64,000 nt of DNA, taken from assembly GCA_964573055.1 (NCBI GenBank), contig CAZNIG010000007.1, forward strand, positions 11,545 to 75,544, read 5' to 3'. The notes below the pieces were generated by a model that did not search any database, was not told the origin of the DNA, and was given only the letters and a program-made list of their open reading frames with translations. This DNA is from an uncultured Dehalococcoidia bacterium. Lineage in GTDB: Bacteria > Chloroflexota > Dehalococcoidia > Lucifugimonadales > UBA2985. Made by a program: the position numbers and the translations under genes. Shown one piece after another: positions 734 through 42,799 of the stretch. Every line of letters starts with the position of its first letter. The first letter of the stretch is position 1.

Positions 734-1303
734 TTAACCTGAAATGATCCTGATCCAGCCAGAAAAAGCCTGAAGATTCAACTCAACCTGTTCTCTAGCT
801 GCGTAATCAACCAGATTACCCGTCTCATCGAAGTTACTAAGGCCACCAGATATACCGACATCTCCTGAAGGCATAGGAACAGCCCTAGGATAAACAATCA
901 CATCCCTTACTTGGCGTCTGGCCAGTGCTCCGATGCCTCTCGGCCCACTGGCTATAGACATAATGGAAACAGGTTTATTTAGAAGAACGTTACCAGGAGG
1001 AGTGTTTCTGCGAGATGCCCAGTCAATCAAATTCTTCGTTACGGCCGGTATCCCCCAATTGTACTCAGGAGTGACGATCAATAATCCATCTGCGGATTCT
1101 ATTTCCTGCTTGAAATCAATTACTGACTGTGGCGGATCTTCATCCTCCATGTCTTGATCAAATAGAGGGATATCATGAATATCCAATTCATGAATCGACA
1201 TTCCAGCTGGCGCCAGAGATATGGCTGATCGAAGCAGAAGTCTATTAATAGACCCTTTTCTTAAACTACCGGCGAAAGCTACAACTTTATATGATTGAGC
1301 CAT
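734..1303 (-). CDS. NADPH-dependent FMN reductase family oxidoreductase
   Basis: KVVAFAGSLRKGSINRLLL...LLIVTPEYNWGIPAVTKNLIDWASR is typical of the FMN_red family. Start moved to ATG 1303 (MAQSYK) because GGAGGA lies 9 nt upstream. TAA stop. Confidence 0.85.
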   Translation of the reverse strand: MAQSYKVVAFAGSLRKGSINRLLLRSAISLAPAGMSIHELDIHDIPLFDQDMEDEDPPQSVIDFKQEIESADGLLIVTPEYNWGIPAVTKNLIDWASRRNTPPGNVLLNKPVSIMSIASGPRGIGALARRQVRDVIVYPRAVPMPSGDVGISGGLSNFDETGNLVDYAAREQVELNLQAFSGWIRIISG

Positions 1304-1413
1304 TAGCATCGTCCTCCAAGCACATGGACTCTTAACCGGCTTATAACCCAACGAAACCAGCACATATCGCCAACCTCAGGTAGCATATCTGTAAACCGAG
1401 CCGGGTACTACAA

Positions 1414-1477: not shown

Positions 1478-1945
1478 CTAAAGATTCTTAACTGCCGCTT
1501 TAATCTCGTCGAAATCAGGTTGTTCTGGAGGAGCAACCGCGGTGCTATACCGAACCACTCCGTCTTTGTCTAACAAGAACACAGCTCTCTTCGAGGTTGT
1601 GTAGCCTGGCATTCCAGCAAAATTCTCGACTGGTATTCCAAAATCTTCGATGGTCTTCCGACTGTAATCACTAAGAAATGGGAAGTTAAGCTCGTTCTCT
1701 TTCACAAATGCATTCTGAACAAAGAAAGAATCCACGCTTATCCCATAAACTTGTACACCTAGATCGTTATATTCGCTCATGGCGTCTCTGAATGTGCAGG
1801 CTTCCTGCTGGCAGCCACCAGTAAAAGCACCCGGAAAGAATACGAGTACTGCCGGAGTTCCTTTTAGGTCTGCTAATGTAACTGGCTGACGTTGGTTATT
1901 AATTAATGTCAGCTCTGGTGCCTCGTGACCTACTTCTGCTGGCAT
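1478..1945 (-). CDS. Peroxiredoxin (AhpC/TSA, redoxin family)
   Basis: MPAEVGHEAPELTL...VLVFFPGAFTGGCQQEAC...AVFLLDKDGVVRY shows a Prx fold with its peroxidatic Cys. Start set at ATG 1945 with GGAGG upstream. TAG stop. Confidence 0.85.
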   Translation of the reverse strand: MPAEVGHEAPELTLINNQRQPVTLADLKGTPAVLVFFPGAFTGGCQQEACTFRDAMSEYNDLGVQVYGISVDSFFVQNAFVKENELNFPFLSDYSRKTIEDFGIPVENFAGMPGYTTSKRAVFLLDKDGVVRYSTAVAPPEQPDFDEIKAAVKNL

Positions 1946-2153
1946 ATTGCCTCCTCTCAGTTCACCCAATTTTCGTTATAGTACCACCCCGAGGACACCA
2001 CCGTAAATCCGAGAATCAAAGTGGCATTTTGTTTAAACAGCCAGGCCTTAACAAGTGATAAGCTATCACTACAAAAAAATTGTAAGATTCAACGCTAGCT
2101 ATTCTTGGAAAGTATTCCACCAGCGATGGCAAACTACAAGAGAAGGTGAAATA

Positions 2154-4931: not shown

Positions 4932-5007
4932 GCCCCTGTAGCTCAGTCGGACAGAGCAGCGGTTTCCTAAACCGCAGGCCCCGGTTCGAGTCCGGGCAGG
5001 GGTACCA
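4932..5007 (+). tRNA. tRNA-Arg (anticodon CCT)
   Basis: Cloverleaf folded by hand. Acceptor GCCCCTG/CAGGGGT, anticodon arm GCGGT-TTCCTAA-ACCGC, T arm CCCGG-TTCGAGT-CCGGG, encoded CCA. 76 nt. Confidence 0.9.
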
Positions 5008-5071
5008 CAAAGCATCGCAAGATACAACGGGTTGAGTATTCTAACGTAGTACGGGATACTAGTACAAACGG

Positions 5072-5148
5072 AGGAGTGTAGCTCAGTTGGCTAGAGCAGC
5101 GGGCTCCAAAACCGCAGGCCGGGGGTTCGAGTCCTCCCACTCCTGCCA
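5072..5148 (+). tRNA. tRNA-Trp (anticodon CCA)
   Basis: Acceptor AGGAGTG/CACTCCT, D arm GCTC-AGTTGGCTA-GAGC, anticodon arm GCGGG-CTCCAAA-ACCGC (G31-A39 mismatch), T loop TTCGAGT, discriminator G, encoded CCA. Confidence 0.9.
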
Positions 5149-5191
5149 TAAATACTGTACAAGACTGAGATAGGAAAACAGGAATAGATAT

Positions 5192-5278
5192 GCCGAGGTG
5201 GTGGAATCGGTAGACACGCTGTCTTGAGGGGGCAGTGGGCGTAAGCTCGTAGGAGTTCAAATCTCCTCCTCGGCACCA
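5192..5278 (+). tRNA. tRNA-Leu (anticodon GAG)
   Basis: Acceptor GCCGAGG/CCTCGGC, anticodon loop TTGAGGG, long variable arm, T arm AGGAG-TTCAAAT-CTCCT, encoded CCA. 87 nt. Confidence 0.9.
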
Positions 5279-5302
5279 TAAATGTGATAATATAGTCGGC
5301 GT

Positions 5303-5378
5303 GGCGACGTAGCCAAGTGGTTAAGGCGGAGCTCTGCAAAAGCTCTATTCGGCGGTTCGAATCCGCCCGTCGCCTCCA
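5303..5378 (+). tRNA. tRNA-Cys (anticodon GCA)
   Basis: Acceptor GGCGACG/CGTCGCC, anticodon arm GAGCT-CTGCAAA-AGCTC, T arm GGCGG-TTCGAAT-CCGCC, discriminator T, encoded CCA. Confidence 0.9.
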
Positions 5379-5447
5379 TCCTACCCCCCAAGAGTAAGTA
5401 GTGGAGCGGACCTATATACCGCCTCACCATACTCAAAGTTTCCATGA

Positions 5448-5533
5448 GCCCAGGTGGCGGAAAGGTAGACGCGGCGGACTTAAAATCCGCTGCCAGCAAT
5501 GGCGTGGGGGTTCGATTCCCTCCCTGGGCACCA
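5448..5533 (+). tRNA. tRNA-Leu (anticodon TAA)
   Basis: Acceptor GCCCAGG/CCTGGGC, anticodon arm GCGGA-CTTAAAA-TCCGC, long variable arm, T loop TTCGATT, encoded CCA. 86 nt. Confidence 0.9.
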
Positions 5534-7419: not shown

Positions 7420-8643
7420 ATGGAAATTATTGCTATCGCCCTAGCAATCGTAGTCGTATTACTTACGTCTCTTCTGATACTGAATAGAAAACCAGCTTCA
7501 GACGGCTCCTTAAGTCAAGCTGCCAAATCAGATTTTCAAAAGGTGGTGCAAGATTCGCTTTCGCAAACATCAGAGGGATTCCTGAGACTAGCAGAAGAGC
7601 GGTATGCAAGACTCTCGGATAGCGGCACCAAGGATCTTGAAGGAAAAAAAGAGCTTATAGACCAGCAGCTCGCCACCATGAAATCGGAACTCTTAAAGGT
7701 CTCAGATTTAGTACAACAGTTTGAGAAAGACAGAGAGGCAAAATTTGGACAGCTCACCTCCCTGATCAAATTCCACAGCGAGCAAACTGCGACTCTAAAT
7801 TCAACCGCCTCATCCCTAAAAGAGGTTCTATCCAATTCACGGGCAAGAGGACAGTGGGGGGAACGGATGGTCGACGATGTCTTGCGAACTGTTGGATTTA
7901 GGGAACACATAAATTACGAGAAGAACAAGACTATAGATGGACCAAACACGCGACCAGATTTCATATTCACTCTTCCAGACGGGCTAAAGCTGAACATGGA
8001 CGTTAAATTCCCCTTAGATAACTATCAGAGCTTTATAGAAGTAGACTCTGAGATAGAGAAGATAAAACACCGTACAGCATTCATAAGTGACGTTAAGAGC
8101 AGAATAAGAGAAGTAACCACCCGAGAATACATAGATCCGGAACAAGGTACACTTGACTATATGTTACTGTTTATCCCAATGGAGAGTATTTACGCTTTCA
8201 TACACGAAGAGGACCCAAGCCTAATAGATTTCAGCATGCAAAACAGAGTTGTTATGTGTTCCCCTCTTAGCCTCTTCGCTATACTATCCATGATACGTCA
8301 GGCTGCTGACAACTTCGCCCTTCAAAGAAGCTCTGAACAGGTCATATCCTTATTCGGACGGTTCACAGAGGAGTGGAGGAAATTTAACGGTTCTATTGCC
8401 ACGTTGGGCAAGCAAATGGAAACTACGCGGAAAACTTTTGAGCAGATGTCCACAACAAGAGTCCGCGCACTAGAGCGCCCTCTAAAACAGATAGAGGCCA
8501 TCCGCCAAGAACGCGGGATAAAATCCGCAGACCGTACAGAAATCCTACCAGTCCTCTTCGCTTCATCCGAAGAGGACAATAGCTCGACATTTTCGGACAT
8601 AGATCTAGACCAGGAAGACGAAACAGAAGAGGCCAGACCTTAA
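7420..8643 (+). CDS. rmuC: DNA recombination protein RmuC
   Basis: N-terminal TM, coiled coil, then RGQWGERMVDDVLRTVGF...RPDFIFTLPDGLKLNMDVKFPLDNY, typical of RmuC. The second ATG (7420) has GGAGG 7 nt upstream. The ORF is open from 7408. Confidence 0.85.
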   Translation: MEIIAIALAIVVVLLTSLLILNRKPASDGSLSQAAKSDFQKVVQDSLSQTSEGFLRLAEERYARLSDSGTKDLEGKKELIDQQLATMKSELLKVSDLVQQFEKDREAKFGQLTSLIKFHSEQTATLNSTASSLKEVLSNSRARGQWGERMVDDVLRTVGFREHINYEKNKTIDGPNTRPDFIFTLPDGLKLNMDVKFPLDNYQSFIEVDSEIEKIKHRTAFISDVKSRIREVTTREYIDPEQGTLDYMLLFIPMESIYAFIHEEDPSLIDFSMQNRVVMCSPLSLFAILSMIRQAADNFALQRSSEQVISLFGRFTEEWRKFNGSIATLGKQMETTRKTFEQMSTTRVRALERPLKQIEAIRQERGIKSADRTEILPVLFASSEEDNSSTFSDIDLDQEDETEEARP

Positions 8644-8688
8644 GTCCGCCCAATATTCTATACATCCCCGCGATAGGAATCTACTTCA

Positions 8689-10143
8689 ATGGAATTCGTC
8701 TCATCCGAAACAGCATATATAGCACCAAATTTCCCACCAAACCTAGATTGGATAAATGCCGATTCCCCAATAAGCCTAAATGACCTCCGCGGGAAGATAG
8801 TCTTGTTAGACTTCTGGACATACTGCTGAGTGAATTGCATGCACCTACTTCCGCAGTTGCGGAAGCTAGAACAAAAATATAGCCGGGAAATGGTCATCAT
8901 AGGTGTTCACACACCAAAGTTCACATCTGAAATGAACACCGAGAATATTCGGTCGGCCGTAATCAGGTACCGACTGAATCACCCAGTAATAAATGACAGC
9001 GCATATGGTATATGGCGGGATTATGACATACATGCCTGGCCGACGTTGATATTTATAGATCCAGTTGGACAGATCATGGGGAAGATAGAGGGAGAGGTTA
9101 CTTTTGACAGCATGGACTCCCTGTTGGGTAAGATGGTAAGACATTTCGATGAAGCCGAGCTTTTAAAACGCTCAACATTGGCAAGTAATCCGCACGAAAA
9201 ACACAACAACAAAAATCCAAAACTTTCGTTCCCTGGCAATATTACTGCGGATAAACTAAAGCGCCGTTTGTTTATATCTGATTCGAACAACGATAGGATA
9301 ATTATGGCCACACCTGATGGCCGTGTCACTGATATCATAGGCTCAGGGACTCCCGGCAACCGAGATGGTAATTTCTCAACAGCTCAATTCTCCTCACCAC
9401 AGGGTATGTCGGTACTAAAGAGCAACTTATACGTGTGTGACACAGATAACCATGCTATCCGTAGAGTAGATCTAACTACTAACGAGGTAGATACAATTAT
9501 TGATACCGCTAATTACACGTTGAGTTCGCCTTGGGACGTAGCTTGTTCAAATAACTATCTCTACTTCGCGATGGCAGGTATTCATCAATTATGGGACACA
9601 AATTTAACCACAGGCGAAACTTTACCTTTAGTTGGAACAGGGTACGAAGGACTTAAGGATGGCCCAACCACACAAGCTTGGCTGGCCCAGCCAAGTGGTA
9701 TAGCCATTCAAGATAATGTCATTTATTTTGCCGATAGCGAAACCAGTTCGATCAGGCAAATCGACCTAATGGGTGACCAATCAGTAGAAACATTAGTAGG
9801 AATTGGGCTATTCGAATTTGGAGATACCGATGGGATAGGAAACCAAGTAAGACTTCAACACCCTCTAGGCTTAACTCTCAACAATGGCTACATATTCTTG
9901 GCAGACACTTATAACAATAAAATAAAGAAACTGAACCCATATAGCCGAAAGATAGTAACCCTGGCAGGCACAGGGGAGTCCGGATTTACTGACGGAAAAT
10001 CGACCAACGCAACTTTTAACGAGCCAAGTGGCCTGACAATATTGGATAACACCATCTACATCGCAGATACCAACAACAATGCTATTCGGACCATAGATAT
10101 ATCTACTCTAGAGGTAAGAACGTTGGAGGTTACAGGTCTATAA
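8689..10143 (+). CDS. Thioredoxin-like domain + NHL-repeat beta-propeller protein, probable selenoprotein (TGA 8827-8829 read as Sec in a C-U-V-N-C redox motif)
   Basis: The frame is open from ATG 8689 to 10143 except for one TGA: ...[12 protein letters not shown][TGA][14 protein letters not shown]... Five NHL-type repeats follow (e.g. [59 protein letters not shown]). The ORF track only reports the part from GTG 8830. Confidence 0.7.
8845..8869 (+). promoter_or_regulatory. SECIS-like stem-loop downstream of in-frame UGA
   Basis: Perfect 7-bp stem CTTCCGC/GCGGAAG (8848-8854 / 8859-8865) with loop AGTT. A lower 3-bp extension CTA/TAG has a bulged C8866. The loop begins 25 nt after the UGA. Confidence 0.5.
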
Positions 10144-11907: not shown

Positions 11908-12324
11908 TTACCTGAGAGAAGCAGATATATTGCCACCGTCGACCGTGGTCACGTCCGCAGTAGTCTTAGTTTGCAAAGCTTGATGCAAAAAAGCCTTAGC
12001 TACGTCTTCGGGGGTGACTTCCGCTCCAAGAAGGTTGCCCTTCATATAATCTTGTTCACTAACTCCTCTAGCTTTAGATCTATCAGAAATCAATTGAGGC
12101 GTTAGGATACCACTCCGAATTCTATCGGCATTCACCGCATTTGCCCTTATACCATAACGACCATTCTCCAACGCATATTGCCGAACCAAAAACAGTGCTG
12201 CAGCCTTGGGTAATCCATAAGCTCCGAAGGATTCCCCGGGATTAACAGCTTGTTTGGAAACATTGAATAATAAGACCCCTCCAATGTCTTGCAAACGCAT
12301 GACTCTTATAGCATTTTGTGCCAC
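11908..12324 (-). CDS. C-terminal part of the SDR domain of the upstream aldolase/SDR gene (fragment). The frame stays open up to 12393 and is contiguous with 12394..13968 across one TGA.
   Basis: Contains the SDR catalytic Ser and YxxxK (NVSKQAV...AYGLPKAAA) and the typical C-terminus (TGNxxxVDGG-like TTVDGGNISASLR). It lacks its own Rossmann GxxxGxG, which lies in the upstream ORF. Confidence 0.7.
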   Translation of the reverse strand: MAQNAIRVMRLQDIGGVLLFNVSKQAVNPGESFGAYGLPKAAALFLVRQYALENGRYGIRANAVNADRIRSGILTPQLISDRSKARGVSEQDYMKGNLLGAEVTPEDVAKAFLHQALQTKTTADVTTVDGGNISASLR

Positions 12325-12393
12325 AGACTGATGGGAGAAGAAATTGAGATCAAAGCTGTCCCGTAATGAGCGATCTGGGATTTCGGCAATTTG

Positions 12394-13968
12394 TCACTGC
12401 CATGATGCTCCAGCAATAGAAACCACAATATCAACACCACCAAAACGTTTACAGACAGTATCGAATGCATTTTCCACTGAAGCTCTATCCGTTACATCAC
12501 ATTCCACGGGAAGCGCGTATCGCCCAATTTCTCCAGAAATTTGGTCAGCCCTTGTGTAATCTATGTCAAGAAGAGCTACTTCCGCTCCTTGGTAAGCGAA
12601 TTCCTTGGCAACCGCCCTGCCTATCGCACCGGCACCACCCGTAACTACCACAACGCATCCTGAGAATTGTTTTGTGTACGAACGCCCTAATTTTGCCTGC
12701 TCTAAGGACCAATATTCTACCTCGAACAAATCTGATTCACTAAAAGGCTGGAATACACCAATACCACTTGCATCAGTTATTGTGTCAATCGTGCTTTCGG
12801 CTATGTCCGCTGCTATCGAAGCGTCCCTCGCATTTCTACCAACACCAAACAGTCCTATTCCAGGAACCAACACCACTCGAGGAAATGGATCCAATTCAAT
12901 CTTTGAATTTTCCTGATTAGTTTGATGACGATCAAAATAGGCATGATATTCCTCTACAAATCCATCCACGGCCTCTATTACTCTACCCCGATAGGATTCG
13001 AGATCATAACCGTTTGACGAAGGAAGCAGGAGTGGCCAATTCTTTGTCCTAATAGTGTGATCTGGTGTAACTATCCAGGGCTCTCTGTCCCCTGATTCCG
13101 TAGCTAAAGCTGCGTGATTGAGTATAATATCACTAGTCCTGAACTCAAGGATAAACCTCGAGTTCCCATCAAAGGACAGTTTGTCCTTCATTCTGAAAGC
13201 GCCTCTAATCAAAGGGCCTAAATCCGAATGTCCAAGATTGCCATGGTTGAAAGATGCACCCTGAAATACTTGCTTTTTACCTTTTGCCAAATAGCTCTCA
13301 ACTAGAGTAACTAGGTCAATCATCATCTGGTAAGACTCCTGTGCTGAATCACCAAACGTAAAAATCCCGTGTTTTAAAAGTATCAGACCATCTATACCAG
13401 AGGATTCCTCGTATACCTTGTAACCTACCTTAGCCAATTCAAAACCAGGTCTTATGTAAGGCACGATTCCAACACGACCCCCGAAAATTTCCTCACACAG
13501 ATCCACAGCATTACTTTGATTTGTAAGACTCAATATCGCATTGGCATGGGTATGATCAACGAATTTATGAGATATATACGCATGAAGCAACGTCTCTATT
13601 GACGGGGTGGAAGCCATACTATCCATCAGATTAGATCGTTCGAAATTTACTAATTGGTCGTCTGAAAGAGAATTCAGTTCCTTCAATTTTAGCAATGGCT
13701 CCAATCTCACGGCCGGCAATTCATCCGGTTGAATATATGCCATATCGGATCCGCTGCCCTTAACGCAAATAATATCTTGATATTTGCCGAAAACGTCAGT
13801 TGCCACGGTTTTCACTGAGGTATTGCCTCCCCCGTGCAAAACCAGCTTAGGGTTAACTCCAAGTAGCCGCGTTGTATAAACCCGCCAGGCAAGGTCTTCG
13901 GGAACACCATTGTCCTTTAGGCCATTCACAAGTTTTATGGCTTCGGAATCTGACCACAAGTTTTCCAT
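12394..13968 (-). CDS. Bifunctional class II aldolase/adducin-domain + short-chain dehydrogenase protein, N-terminal 524 aa ending at an in-frame TGA
   Basis: N-terminal aldolase-like half, then SDR Rossmann start VVVVTGGAGAIGRAVAKEF...DIVVSIAGASWQ[TGA]. GAGGT precedes ATG 13968. Confidence 0.8.
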   Translation of the reverse strand: MENLWSDSEAIKLVNGLKDNGVPEDLAWRVYTTRLLGVNPKLVLHGGGNTSVKTVATDVFGKYQDIICVKGSGSDMAYIQPDELPAVRLEPLLKLKELNSLSDDQLVNFERSNLMDSMASTPSIETLLHAYISHKFVDHTHANAILSLTNQSNAVDLCEEIFGGRVGIVPYIRPGFELAKVGYKVYEESSGIDGLILLKHGIFTFGDSAQESYQMMIDLVTLVESYLAKGKKQVFQGASFNHGNLGHSDLGPLIRGAFRMKDKLSFDGNSRFILEFRTSDIILNHAALATESGDREPWIVTPDHTIRTKNWPLLLPSSNGYDLESYRGRVIEAVDGFVEEYHAYFDRHQTNQENSKIELDPFPRVVLVPGIGLFGVGRNARDASIAADIAESTIDTITDASGIGVFQPFSESDLFEVEYWSLEQAKLGRSYTKQFSGCVVVVTGGAGAIGRAVAKEFAYQGAEVALLDIDYTRADQISGEIGRYALPVECDVTDRASVENAFDTVCKRFGGVDIVVSIAGASWQ

Positions 13969-42722: not shown

Positions 42723-42799
42723 TGGTGGGCCGTCAGGGATTCGAACCCTGGACACCCTGATTAAAAGTCAGGTGCTCTGCCAAGCTGAGCTAACGGCCC
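42723..42799 (-). tRNA. tRNA-Lys (anticodon TTT)
   Basis: The reverse complement folds as GGGCCGT-TA-GCTC-AGCTTGGCA-GAGC-A-CCTGA-CTTTTAA-TCAGG-GTGTC-CAGGG-TTCGAAT-CCCTG-ACGGCCC-A-CCA. Confidence 0.9.

What the first reader, a model, noticed from the sequence alone, without database searches (positions are those of the whole stretch)
8689..10143. In-frame UGA at the first Cys of the CxxC of a thioredoxin-like/NHL-repeat protein: probable selenoprotein with a SECIS-like hairpin
The ORF track begins this gene at GTG 8830 (MNCMHLL...). The same frame is open upstream from ATG 8689, which has AGGAA 10 nt upstream. It reads [46 protein letters not shown]-[TGA 8827-8829][17 protein letters not shown].

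This architecture (thioredoxin-like domain plus NHL beta-propeller, NHLRC2-type) has Cys-containing members. From memory, their redox motif is ...LDF(F/W)TYCCINC(I/M)H... On that alignment the TGA falls on the N-terminal nucleophilic Cys of the CxxC, giving C-U-V-N-C.

A perfect 7-bp stem, CTTCCGC/GCGGAAG (8848-8865), starts 18 nt downstream of the TGA. It has an AGTT loop and can be extended by 3 bp with a bulged C (8845-8869). The loop lies 25 nt from the UGA and contains GU, which is within the geometry described for bacterial SECIS elements.

TGA is otherwise a normal stop in this window. Automated annotation would therefore lose the N-terminal 47 residues and the active site.
Basis: partly seen in the sequence, partly recalled or inferred. 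Interest (0 to 1): 0.75.

Follow-up and report, generated by a model that had tools for sequence, protein, structure and literature searches.

The report
Mis-annotated selenoprotein of the NHLRC2/SOQ1 family
This gene almost certainly encodes a selenocysteine-containing relative of human NHLRC2 and plant SOQ1, in which an in-frame UGA and a hairpin just after it replace the key active-site cysteine. Public annotation cuts off the start of the protein in this genome and in the relatives checked across more than 120 related species.

Summary
ATG 8689 opens a frame that runs through TGA 8827-8829 to TAA 10143, and a 7-bp hairpin with an AGUU loop lies 25 nt after the TGA.

- The same TGA, at the same codon (…LDFWTYC-U-[IV]NCMH…), occurs in at least 120 species-level genomes. 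Nearly all are Dehalococcoidia/Chloroflexota; a few are NC10, one Planctomycetales and one Nitrolancea.
- 114 of 120 unique Sec-type sequences meet all four published bacterial SECIS criteria, against 5 of 115 Cys-type homologues.
- The hairpin codons are frozen at synonymous sites only in the TGA forms.
- NC10 members carry a different hairpin at the same place.
- One Cys form still carries the hairpin as a relic.

The TGA aligns with SOQ1 Cys431 and NHLRC2 Cys90, the N-terminal Cys of the redox pair in the CCINC motif. TGA ends 10 of 40 other genes in the window, so the genetic code is standard.

Sec-decoding genes are not in the window and could not be checked in the genome. Support for them is indirect: the literature reports Dehalococcoidia with 46-49 selenoproteins.

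Gene callers truncate these genes throughout. I found no paper or family list that names this architecture as a selenoprotein. Verdict: a real, ordinary-mechanism selenoprotein that is a new member of a known kind.

The parts
8675..8679 (+). AGGAA Shine-Dalgarno-like motif, 9 nt upstream of the true start codon
   Evidence: Read directly from the sequence. The upstream gene (RmuC family) ends at 8643.
8689..10143 (+). Full selenoprotein gene: 484 codons with Sec at codon 47. It encodes a Trx-like domain plus a six-bladed NHL beta-propeller, with no signal peptide and no C-terminal domain.
   Evidence: Translation, Pfam, PDB matches to SOQ1 and NHLRC2 over residues 7-483. The upstream frame is conserved in at least 120 genomes.
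8824..8838 (+). Active-site motif C46-U47-V48-N49-C50 (TGC TGA GTG AAT TGC), equivalent to CC(I/V)NC of NHLRC2/SOQ1
   Evidence: Column-by-column comparison of 119 Sec and 114 Cys forms and the alignment to SOQ1.
8827..8829 (+). In-frame UGA, read as selenocysteine (inferred). It aligns with SOQ1 Cys431 and NHLRC2 Cys90.
   Evidence: In the Cys relic L248 the same codon is TGC, with the hairpin retained.
8845..8869 (+). SECIS-type hairpin. Upper stem is 8848-8854 with 8859-8865 (7 bp), apical loop AGUU is 8855-8858, and the lower extension is 8845-8847 with 8867-8869, with C8866 bulged.
   Evidence: Fold, bSECIS constraints met, family conservation and pair counts, and absence from Cys forms.
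8689..9153 (+). Thioredoxin-like (TlpA/Thioredoxin_8-type) domain, residues about 1-155, including the conserved cis-Pro motif W117-P118-T119
   Evidence: Pfam Thioredoxin_8 on residues 35-129, invariant W117/P118, and domain limits from the AF2 model of the co-linear proxy P0025.
9220..10140 (+). Six-bladed NHL-repeat beta-propeller, residues about 178-484
   Evidence: Pfam NHL/TEN_NHL, 24 strands in the model, Foldseek matches to 7DJK, 6GC1 and 6G7W.
8839..10143 (+). The truncated 434-aa product that public gene callers report for this gene. It starts at M51 and has no active site.
   Evidence: P0365 and P0001 and an exact look-up of window:8839-10143.

Best explanation
Positions 8689-10143 are one gene for a cytoplasmic selenoprotein of 484 residues. 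It is a bacterial orthologue of human NHLRC2 and plant SOQ1: a thioredoxin-like domain packed against a six-bladed NHL beta-propeller.

[quoted passage not shown] The hairpin has a 7-bp stem and an AGUU loop 25 nt downstream of the UGA. SelB delivers Sec-tRNA(Sec), so the UGA is decoded as selenocysteine rather than as stop.

This gives the active site C46-U47-V48-N49-C50. Sec occupies the N-terminal, nucleophilic position of the redox pair, equivalent to SOQ1 C431-C434.

Likely chemistry (inferred from the family): the selenolate attacks an oxidised substrate held at the propeller 'cup' that faces the active site. C50 then resolves the adduct as a selenenylsulfide.

The Sec-type proteins lack the C-terminal domain that receives electrons from the Trx-like domain in SOQ1. 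They therefore must act directly on a substrate or on a separate partner. One candidate is the DUF255/YyaL-type thioredoxin-domain protein encoded immediately downstream in about 40% of Sec-type loci. It is not present in this window.
For: Shown by tool results:

1. The frame is open and reads as a conserved Trx N-terminus across the TGA.

2. A 57%-identical orthologue in a GC-rich genome has the TGA at the same codon. Its hairpin is the same except for one U-A to U-G change.

My own estimate of chance matches is about 0.3. All hits have a conserved upstream frame and about 447-464 codons downstream.

4. Sec and Cys forms differ sharply downstream of the codon:
   - A stem of at least 7 bp is present in 113 of 119 Sec forms and 6 of 114 Cys forms.
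   - MFE is -10.5 versus -5.5 kcal/mol (p = 1e-26).
   - All four bSECIS constraints from PMC13188914 are met by 114 of 120 Sec forms and 5 of 115 Cys forms.

5. Sec forms fix the codons CCG-CAG-TTG-CGG, while Cys forms use all synonyms and mostly different residues.

6. In the formal pair count, 95.7% of cells are paired, against 67% or less in slid registers. The covariation score is 0.156 against 0.106 in shuffles, and 0 of 500 shuffles reach it.

7. NC10, Nitrolancea and Planctomycetales members have different hairpins at the same distance. The nearest relatives of the NC10 and Planctomycetales forms are Cys forms. At least 4 Sec/Cys switches are needed on a rough tree.

8. L248 is a Cys (TGC) form that keeps the intact hairpin and nests among the Sec forms.

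9. TGA ends 10 of 40 other ORFs in the window.

10. Homology and fold match SOQ1 and NHLRC2.

Literature support for the trait: Dehalococcoidia MAGs carry 46-49 selenoprotein genes (PMC13326102), and marine Dehalococcoidia single-cell genomes have Sec-containing formate dehydrogenases (PMC5736913).
Against: - No tRNA-Sec, selA, selB or selD is present in the 64-kb window or in about 1 Mb of flanks of the other Sec-type loci. The rest of this genome could not be read.
- No other selenoprotein gene was found in the window or in the flanks.
- Covariation is real but rests on few independent events. The C-G to U-A switch of the closing pair traces to one or two events, and four of the seven upper-stem pairs are invariant or nearly so.
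- Three Sec-type genes have an AUUU loop with no G.
- There is no experimental evidence that selenium is inserted.
- The biochemical activity is extrapolated from SOQ1 (a preprint), and NHLRC2 lacks activity in the classical insulin-reduction assay (PMC6107167).
Confidence: 0.87

Rival explanations
1. The UGA is recoded through the hairpin, but the residue inserted is not selenocysteine. It could be Cys delivered by a tRNA(Sec)-like tRNA or by SelB under selenium limitation, or Trp/Cys from near-cognate read-through.
For: No Sec machinery could be examined for this genome. Cys is functionally acceptable at this site, since thousands of homologues have it and L248 switched back to it.
Against: The hairpin matches the SelB-type bSECIS model, including the loop G-U and the spacing. 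The lineage is documented as selenoprotein-rich (PMC13326102). Keeping a UGA and a hairpin in more than 120 species to insert ordinary Cys would have no evident advantage over a TGC codon.
Confidence: 0.06
2. The annotated state is right. TGA 8827 is a true stop, the protein starts downstream at GTG 8830 or ATG 8839, and 8689-8829 is a separate small ORF or non-coding leader.
For: Every public gene caller reports the short product. ATG 8839 exists in all members because Met follows the CxxC in the family motif.
Against: The short product would begin in the middle of the Trx fold and lack strand beta-1 and the whole active site. The upstream 46 codons are conserved at the protein level, in frame, in at least 120 species, and align with the N-terminus of the Cys homologues and of SOQ1/NHLRC2. 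There is no Shine-Dalgarno motif before 8830 or 8839.
Confidence: 0.03
3. It is a pseudogene, a nonsense mutation or a sequencing error in an otherwise Cys-type gene.
For: The window does contain one such case elsewhere. The aldolase/short-chain-dehydrogenase gene has TGA at 12394-12396 where a near-identical strain has GGA.
Against: That case has no matching hairpin and is not shared by the sister strain. TGA 8827 is shared by near-identical strains, by a 57%-identical orthologue and by at least 120 species, with an intact frame and purifying selection on both sides.
Confidence: 0.01
4. The hairpin is not a SECIS. It is a by-product of the amino-acid sequence P-Q-L-R-K, or it has another role such as translational pausing or mRNA stability.
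For: The stem lies in a conserved helix of the Trx fold. Four of its seven pairs are invariant or nearly so, so they say nothing about pairing.
Against: Cys-type homologues have the same helix without the hairpin, with P-D/E-L-K and all synonymous codons. Synonymous sites are frozen only when the TGA is present. A non-synonymous Leu/Phe change at codon 7 is matched by a synonymous AAG/AAA change 15 nt away. NC10 members encode a different peptide (P-E-L-D-A-L) that forms a different 7-bp hairpin.
Confidence: 0.03

Closest known systems
Human NHLRC2 (PDB 6GC1) and Arabidopsis SOQ1 lumenal domains (PDB 7DJJ/7DJK)
   Same: Same two-domain architecture and the same relative domain orientation. Sequence E-values are 1e-103 and 1e-120, and TM scores are 0.92 and 0.95 for the proxy model. 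The atypical CC(I/V)NC motif sits in the cleft facing the propeller cup, and the cis-Pro is conserved.
   Different: The second Cys of the motif (NHLRC2 C90, SOQ1 C431) is encoded by UGA here. There is no C-terminal domain, which in SOQ1 holds the C1006/C1012 pair that accepts electrons and is needed for function. There is no HAD domain, membrane anchor or signal peptide, so the protein is cytoplasmic.
Bacterial thioredoxin-fold selenoproteins with a UxxC motif and an in-ORF SECIS (Sec-thioredoxin, Prx-like thiol:disulfide oxidoreductase, 'Redoxin family protein', 'Thiol-disulfide isomerase-like protein'; Table 1 of PMC13188914)
   Same: Sec replaces the N-terminal Cys of a CxxC in a Trx fold. 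A hairpin with a G in a small apical loop lies 16-37 nt after the UGA. Cys-containing homologues are widespread.
   Different: None of the 119 listed families is a Trx-NHL propeller fusion. The Sargasso 'thiol-disulfide isomerase-like' sequences have a different motif, DW-U-TWC. An extra Cys directly precedes the Sec here (C-U-x-N-C).
E. coli fdhF SECIS, the paradigm bacterial SECIS
   Same: A stem-loop immediately downstream of the UGA within the coding sequence, with G-U in the apical loop and a bulged nucleotide on the stem.
   Different: There is no sequence similarity. The loop is a tetraloop (AGUU) and the bulge is on the 3' side of the lower stem. SelB binding has not been tested.
NCBIfam NF041054 'ResA-like WAxxUGC motif-containing protein' and ResA/TlpA/StoA thiol-disulfide oxidoreductases
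   Same: The same TlpA-like Trx subfamily (Thioredoxin_8/AhpC-TSA hits).
   Different: Scores fall far below the family cut-offs: 18.7 against 300 for NF041054, and 59.6 against 170 for ResA. The motif differs and there is an added propeller domain.

Membership tests
Bacterial selenoprotein gene (Sec-UGA + bSECIS) | In-frame UGA aligned with Cys in homologues, with a conserved reading frame on both sides | tested here: met
   The column is U in 119 of 119 Sec forms and C in 114 of 114 Cys forms. The upstream 35-46 residues are conserved.
Bacterial selenoprotein gene (Sec-UGA + bSECIS) | bSECIS model (PMC13188914, Fig. 2): 3-9 nt apical loop on a 4-16 bp stem; G in the first two loop positions; 16-37 nt between UGA and loop; MFE <= -7.5 kcal/mol | tested here: met
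   The window element has a 7-bp stem, an AGUU loop, 25-nt spacing and -10.4 kcal/mol. 114 of 120 Sec forms pass, against 5 of 115 Cys forms.
Bacterial selenoprotein gene (Sec-UGA + bSECIS) | Hairpin conserved as a structure in orthologues (compensatory or compatible changes, or structural replacement) | tested here: met
   95.7% of cells are paired. Two pairs show two-sided changes, but these trace to few events. NC10 and Nitrolancea have different hairpins at the same site.
Bacterial selenoprotein gene (Sec-UGA + bSECIS) | Sec-decoding machinery (selA, selB, selC/tRNA-Sec, selD) in the same genome | not testable with these tools
   It is absent from the window and from the flanks of the other loci. 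The only support is from the literature on the lineage (PMC13326102, PMC5736913).
Bacterial selenoprotein gene (Sec-UGA + bSECIS) | Selenium actually incorporated at the UGA | not testable with these tools
   This needs 75Se labelling or mass spectrometry.
NHLRC2/SOQ1 family | [quoted passage not shown] | tested here: met
NHLRC2/SOQ1 family | CC(I/V)NC motif at the CxxC position, with a conserved cis-Pro | tested here: met
   The motif is C-U-V-N-C, with U at the second position. W117-P118 is invariant in the alignment.
NHLRC2/SOQ1 family | C-terminal beta-stranded domain with a conserved Cys pair (SOQ1 C1006/C1012; NHLRC2 C689/C696) | tested here: not met
   The window protein ends at the last propeller blade. 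101 of 103 complete Sec forms have only 425-475 residues after the Sec. 49 of 86 Cys forms carry the extra domain.
'Thiol-disulfide isomerase-like' selenoprotein family (Sargasso Sea, cd02966) | Same sequence family or motif as the published members | tested here: not met
   Published members read …DW-U-TWC…. The motif WTYCU/UINCMH is absent from the Sargasso and GOS supplements. The review's representative accession could not be fetched.
NCBIfam NF041054 WAxxUGC_long / ResA (NF002854) | Score at or above the curated cut-off | tested here: not met
   18.7 against 300 bits, and 59.6 against 170 bits.

The most novel reading that the evidence does not exclude
Natural selenocysteine at the position of NHLRC2 Cys90 and SOQ1 Cys431 has arisen at least three times independently. 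This marks that residue as the catalytic redox nucleophile of the whole NHLRC2/SOQ1 family, whose biochemistry in humans (FINCA disease) is unresolved. The short, cytoplasmic, CTD-less Sec forms, often in an apparent operon with a DUF255/YyaL (SPATA20-like) thioredoxin-domain protein, would then be a previously undescribed selenium-dependent two-protein redox or protein-repair module in Dehalococcoidia.
Probability: 0.3. Interest if true: 0.65.

Novelty: new member of a known kind. Interest (0 to 1): 0.5.

Why it matters
1. Annotation. In this genome and in the relatives sampled (about 95 of the top 120 hits to one Sec form), the gene is called without its first ~50 residues and without its active site. 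It is named 'alkyl hydroperoxide reductase', 'YncE', 'YvrE' or 'hypothetical'. A single model covering the motif and the hairpin would recover the Sec-type members across at least 120 species.

2. Inventory. The Trx-NHL (NHLRC2/SOQ1) architecture is not among the 119 prokaryotic selenoprotein families in the 2026 review. No paper in the searchable library links NHLRC2 or SOQ1 to selenocysteine.

3. Function. Sec/Cys pairs are an established indicator of catalytic redox cysteines. Here they point at the second Cys of CCINC as the nucleophile of a protein family that is essential in mammals, is mutated in FINCA disease, and has been questioned as an oxidoreductase. This gives a concrete target for mutagenesis and activity tests.

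4. Evolution. The data set contains independent gains with different hairpins and one relic after reversion to Cys. It is a clean natural example of Sec/Cys turnover.

Tried and rejected
- tRNA-Sec search with ARAGORN and Rfam on the window, and ARAGORN on all fetched loci: none found.
- Pfam annotation of 40 window ORFs to look for selA, selB and selD: none. The context is ordinary housekeeping: dnaG-rpoD, glmS, cmk, metH, pyrF.
- tblastn of E. coli SelA, SelB and SelD against about 1 Mb of Sec-type loci: no hits.
- Scan of the window for other TGA-interrupted genes: only this one is credible.
- The same scan on all Sec-type loci, requiring the TGA position to be conserved: only spurious alternative-frame ORFs between close relatives.
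- Attempt to name the window's source record: RpoD and the truncated product exist in an NCBI 84,027-bp contig, but its DNA is not indexed.
I used the co-linear Cys relic P0025 instead.
- A covariance model (R1) was built but not used. It includes the conserved coding positions, so it would not discriminate independently.
- I considered filing the gene under the Sargasso 'thiol-disulfide isomerase-like' family and rejected this because the motif differs.
- I considered treating the C-G/U-A covariation as many independent events and rejected this after the spanning-tree check.
Full report
**Observation.**
- ATG 8689 is preceded by AGGAA at 8675-8679. The spacing is 9 nt, not 10.
- That ATG opens a frame reading MEFVSS…LLDFWTYC, then TGA (8827-8829), then [12 protein letters not shown]…, ending at TAA 10141-10143.
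- The stem CTTCCGC (8848-8854) pairs with GCGGAAG (8859-8865) around an AGTT loop. It can be extended by 8845-8847 with 8867-8869, with C8866 bulged.
- RNAfold gives -13.9 kcal/mol for 8827-8880. None of 200 dinucleotide shuffles folds as well (z = -2.7).
- TGA is an ordinary stop in this genome, ending 10 of 40 Pfam-supported ORFs in the window.

**What the protein is.**
- With the TGA read through, Pfam finds a Thioredoxin_8/AhpC-TSA-type domain (residues 35-129) followed by NHL repeats.
- More than 7,900 homologues were found. Nearly all are full-length Cys forms reading …LDFWTYCCINCMH….
- The closest solved structures are the lumenal Trx-NHL domains of Arabidopsis SOQ1 (7DJJ, E = 1e-120) and human NHLRC2 (6GC1, E = 1e-103). 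Both align over residues 7-483.
- The TGA falls on the second Cys of their atypical CCINC motif. In SOQ1 this is C431, which forms the redox-active pair with C434 (bioRxiv 10.1101/2024.11.01.621559). In NHLRC2 it is C90 of residues 89-93 (PMC6107167).
- An AlphaFold model was made of P0025, a 48%-identical, co-linear Cys form that nests among the Sec forms. It is confident (pLDDT 92, pTM 0.89).
- The model superposes on SOQ1 (TM 0.95, 1.6 Å) and NHLRC2 (TM 0.92) over both domains.

**Comparative evidence that the TGA is decoded.**
- The two nearest database proteins are N-terminally truncated calls. One is 99% identical and the other 57% identical, in a much more GC-rich genome.
- The DNA upstream of both shows a TGA at exactly the same codon with an open, conserved frame before it.
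- I scanned one representative genome per GTDB species for TGG NNN TAY TGY TGA NNN AAY TGY ATGCA. By my own estimate, about 0.3 matches are expected by chance in 1.2e12 positions.
- Nearly all hits are Dehalococcoidia/Chloroflexota, including a SAR202 single-cell genome. There are also five NC10/Methylomirabilota, one Nitrolancea and one Planctomycetales.
- In every hit the upstream frame encodes the conserved N-terminus (…LxWxNxxxPxxLxDLRGKxVxLDFWTYC). About 447-464 codons follow the TGA.

**Evidence that the hairpin is a SECIS.** As a control I fetched 120 metagenomic loci with TGY instead of TGA in the same pattern.
- A stem of at least 7 bp lies within 12-51 nt after the codon in 113 of 119 unique Sec forms, but in only 6 of 114 Cys forms.
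- Mean MFE of the 33-nt segment is -10.5 versus -5.5 kcal/mol (Mann-Whitney p = 1e-26).
- Sec forms use CCG-CAG-TTG-CGG almost exclusively for P-Q-L-R. Cys forms use every synonym and mostly encode P-D/E-L-K.
- The review PMC13188914 (Fig. 2 legend) gives four bSECIS constraints: a 3-9 nt loop on a 4-16 bp stem, a G in the first two loop positions, 16-37 nt spacing, and MFE of -7.5 kcal/mol or lower.
- 114 of 120 Sec forms satisfy all four, against 5 of 115 Cys forms. The window element scores 7 bp, AGUU, 25 nt and -10.4 kcal/mol.
- On an ungapped alignment of 92 distinct canonical sequences, 95.7% of cells pair, against 67% or less in slid registers. The covariation score exceeds all 500 shuffles.
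- The closing pair is U-A in 53, C-G in 29 and U-G in 7. It couples a Leu/Phe change with a synonymous Lys change 15 nt away.
- A spanning-tree check shows that this switch traces to only one or two events, with U-G intermediates. I therefore weight covariation less than the Sec-versus-Cys contrast and the evidence in the next section.

**Independent origins and a relic.**
- NC10 members encode a different peptide after the motif (P-E-L-D-A-L). It forms a different 7-bp hairpin, CCAGAGC-UGGAY-GCUCUGG, 28 nt from the UGA.
- Nitrolancea has an 8-bp variant with a 5-nt loop. The Planctomycetales member has a longer, interrupted stem.
- On a rough NJ tree of 98 Sec and 76 Cys forms, the nearest relatives of the NC10 and Planctomycetales Sec forms are Cys forms. 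At least four Sec/Cys switches are needed.
- Conversely, L248 (P0025) has TGC at the site and still carries the intact hairpin TTTCCGC-AGTT-GCGGAAA. Its nearest relatives are Sec forms. This is what a recent Sec-to-Cys reversion should look like.

**What could not be shown.**
- The window has no tRNA-Sec and no selA, selB or selD among 40 annotated ORFs.
- The flanks of the other Sec-type loci have none either. No second selenoprotein gene was found.
- The window's RpoD places it among Dehalococcoidia/Chloroflexi, at 59-68% identity to named relatives.
- The window matches an NCBI contig of 84,027 bp, but I could not read the rest of that genome.
- Support for the Sec trait is therefore indirect. 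BSepDB lists Dehalococcoidia MAGs with 46 and 49 selenoprotein genes among its top ten (PMC13326102). Marine Dehalococcoidia single-cell genomes carry Sec-containing formate dehydrogenases (PMC5736913).
- That the inserted residue is selenocysteine, and that SelB binds the hairpin, are inferences from the canonical bacterial mechanism.

**Distinctive features of the Sec forms.**
- 101 of 103 complete Sec-type genes stop 425-475 residues after the Sec. They therefore lack the C-terminal domain that 49 of 86 Cys forms carry. In SOQ1 that domain accepts electrons from the Trx-like domain.
- Only one of 113 Sec forms (the Planctomycetales member) has a signal-peptide-like N-terminus. Among Cys forms the figure is 64 of 110.
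- In 36 of 92 evaluable Sec-type loci, a DUF255/Thioredox_DsbH (YyaL/SPATA20-like) gene with a CHWC motif starts 2-140 nt downstream on the same strand. None of 56 Cys-type metagenome loci has this, but the Cys relic does. The link may therefore reflect lineage rather than Sec itself.
- The window lacks this neighbour. Its downstream gene is a HIT-family protein.

**Mechanism proposed.** SelB-dependent decoding of UGA 8827 yields C46-U47-V48-N49-C50. U47 is the attacking selenolate and C50 the resolving thiol. The active site lies in the cleft that faces the propeller cup, where a substrate or partner would bind. The recoding step is strongly supported. The chemistry is inferred from the family: SOQ1 has disulfide-exchange and methionine-sulfoxide-reductase activity (preprint), while NHLRC2 has no activity in the insulin assay.

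**Known or new.**
- Trx-fold UxxC selenoproteins with an in-ORF SECIS are a well-known kind, and Dehalococcoidia are known to be rich in them.
- This architecture is not among the 119 families tabulated in PMC13188914.
- The Sargasso 'thiol-disulfide isomerase-like' selenoproteins have a different motif, DW-U-TWC. The motif is absent from the GOS supplements.
- No paper in the library pairs NHLRC2 or SOQ1 with selenocysteine.
- Public sources consistently truncate these genes. About 95 of the top 120 relatives of one Sec form are 441-463-aa calls at 90% coverage. They are named alkyl hydroperoxide reductase (e.g. NQW20434.1), thioredoxin-like domain-containing protein, YncE, YvrE or hypothetical.
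- It remains possible that BSepDB holds them under a generic Trx-fold label. I could not query that database.

**Verdict.** This is a genuine, conventionally decoded selenoprotein gene that is systematically mis-annotated. It is a new member of a known kind. Its added value is as Sec/Cys evidence for the catalytic residue of the NHLRC2/SOQ1 family.

Noticed in passing
window 11908-13968 (- strand); TGA at 12394-12396: An aldolase_II/short-chain-dehydrogenase fusion gene is split by an in-frame TGA (…AGASWQ-TGA-QIAEIP…). A near-identical strain (L244) has GGA (Gly) there and a single 686-aa product. The window copy also has Ile where L244 has the SDR-motif Asn (SIAG versus SNAG). There is no SECIS-like hairpin. 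It is probably a nonsense polymorphism, a decaying copy or a sequencing error.
   Followed up: partly
L004, L009, L010, L036, L118 and 31 other Sec-type loci, directly downstream of the Trx-NHL gene: A DUF255/Thioredox_DsbH (YyaL/SPATA20-like, about 700 aa, CHWC motif) gene follows the selenoprotein gene on the same strand, 2-140 nt after its stop, in 36 of 92 evaluable Sec-type loci. None of 56 Cys-type metagenome loci has it, and it is absent from this window. It is a possible redox partner or a lineage-specific operon.
   Followed up: partly
L248 positions 510-570 (gene 383-1876): A Cys-type orthologue (TGC at the Sec position) still carries the intact SECIS hairpin TTTCCGC-AGTT-GCGGAAA and nests among the Sec forms. 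It is an apparent recent Sec-to-Cys reversion.
   Followed up: yes
L005, L016, L051, L077, L116 (NC10/Methylomirabilota); L034 (Planctomycetales); L060 (Nitrolancea): Sec forms outside Dehalococcoidia use different hairpins at the same site. NC10 has CCAGAGC-UGGAY-GCUCUGG with 28-nt spacing. The Planctomycetales member has a long interrupted stem and is the only Sec form with a signal peptide. The nearest relatives of the NC10 and Planctomycetales forms are Cys forms, which suggests independent gains of Sec.
   Followed up: partly
L014, L056, L076: Three Sec-type genes have a perfect stem (CUCCCGC/GCGGGAG or CUUCCGC/GCGGGAG) but an AUUU loop with no G. They fail the published bSECIS rule. This may be a tolerated variant or a lineage with different SelB specificity.
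   Followed up: no
codon immediately 5' of the Sec codon (window 8824-8826) across all loci: The Cys codon before the UGA is TGT in 69 and TGC in 50 Sec forms. In Cys forms it is TGC in 102 and TGT in 12. This may be a context effect on UGA decoding, or only lineage codon usage.
   Followed up: no
window 4932-5533: A tight cluster of five tRNA genes (Arg-CCT, Trp-CCA, Leu-GAG, Cys-GCA, Leu-TAA) lies on the + strand. tRNA-Lys-TTT is at 42723-42799 on the - strand. There is no tRNA-Sec.
   Followed up: no
window 1478-1969 (-) and 734-1363 (-): A Cys-type AhpC/TSA peroxiredoxin and an NADPH-dependent FMN reductase lie about 7 kb upstream of the selenoprotein gene. Neither shows an in-frame TGA.
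   Followed up: no
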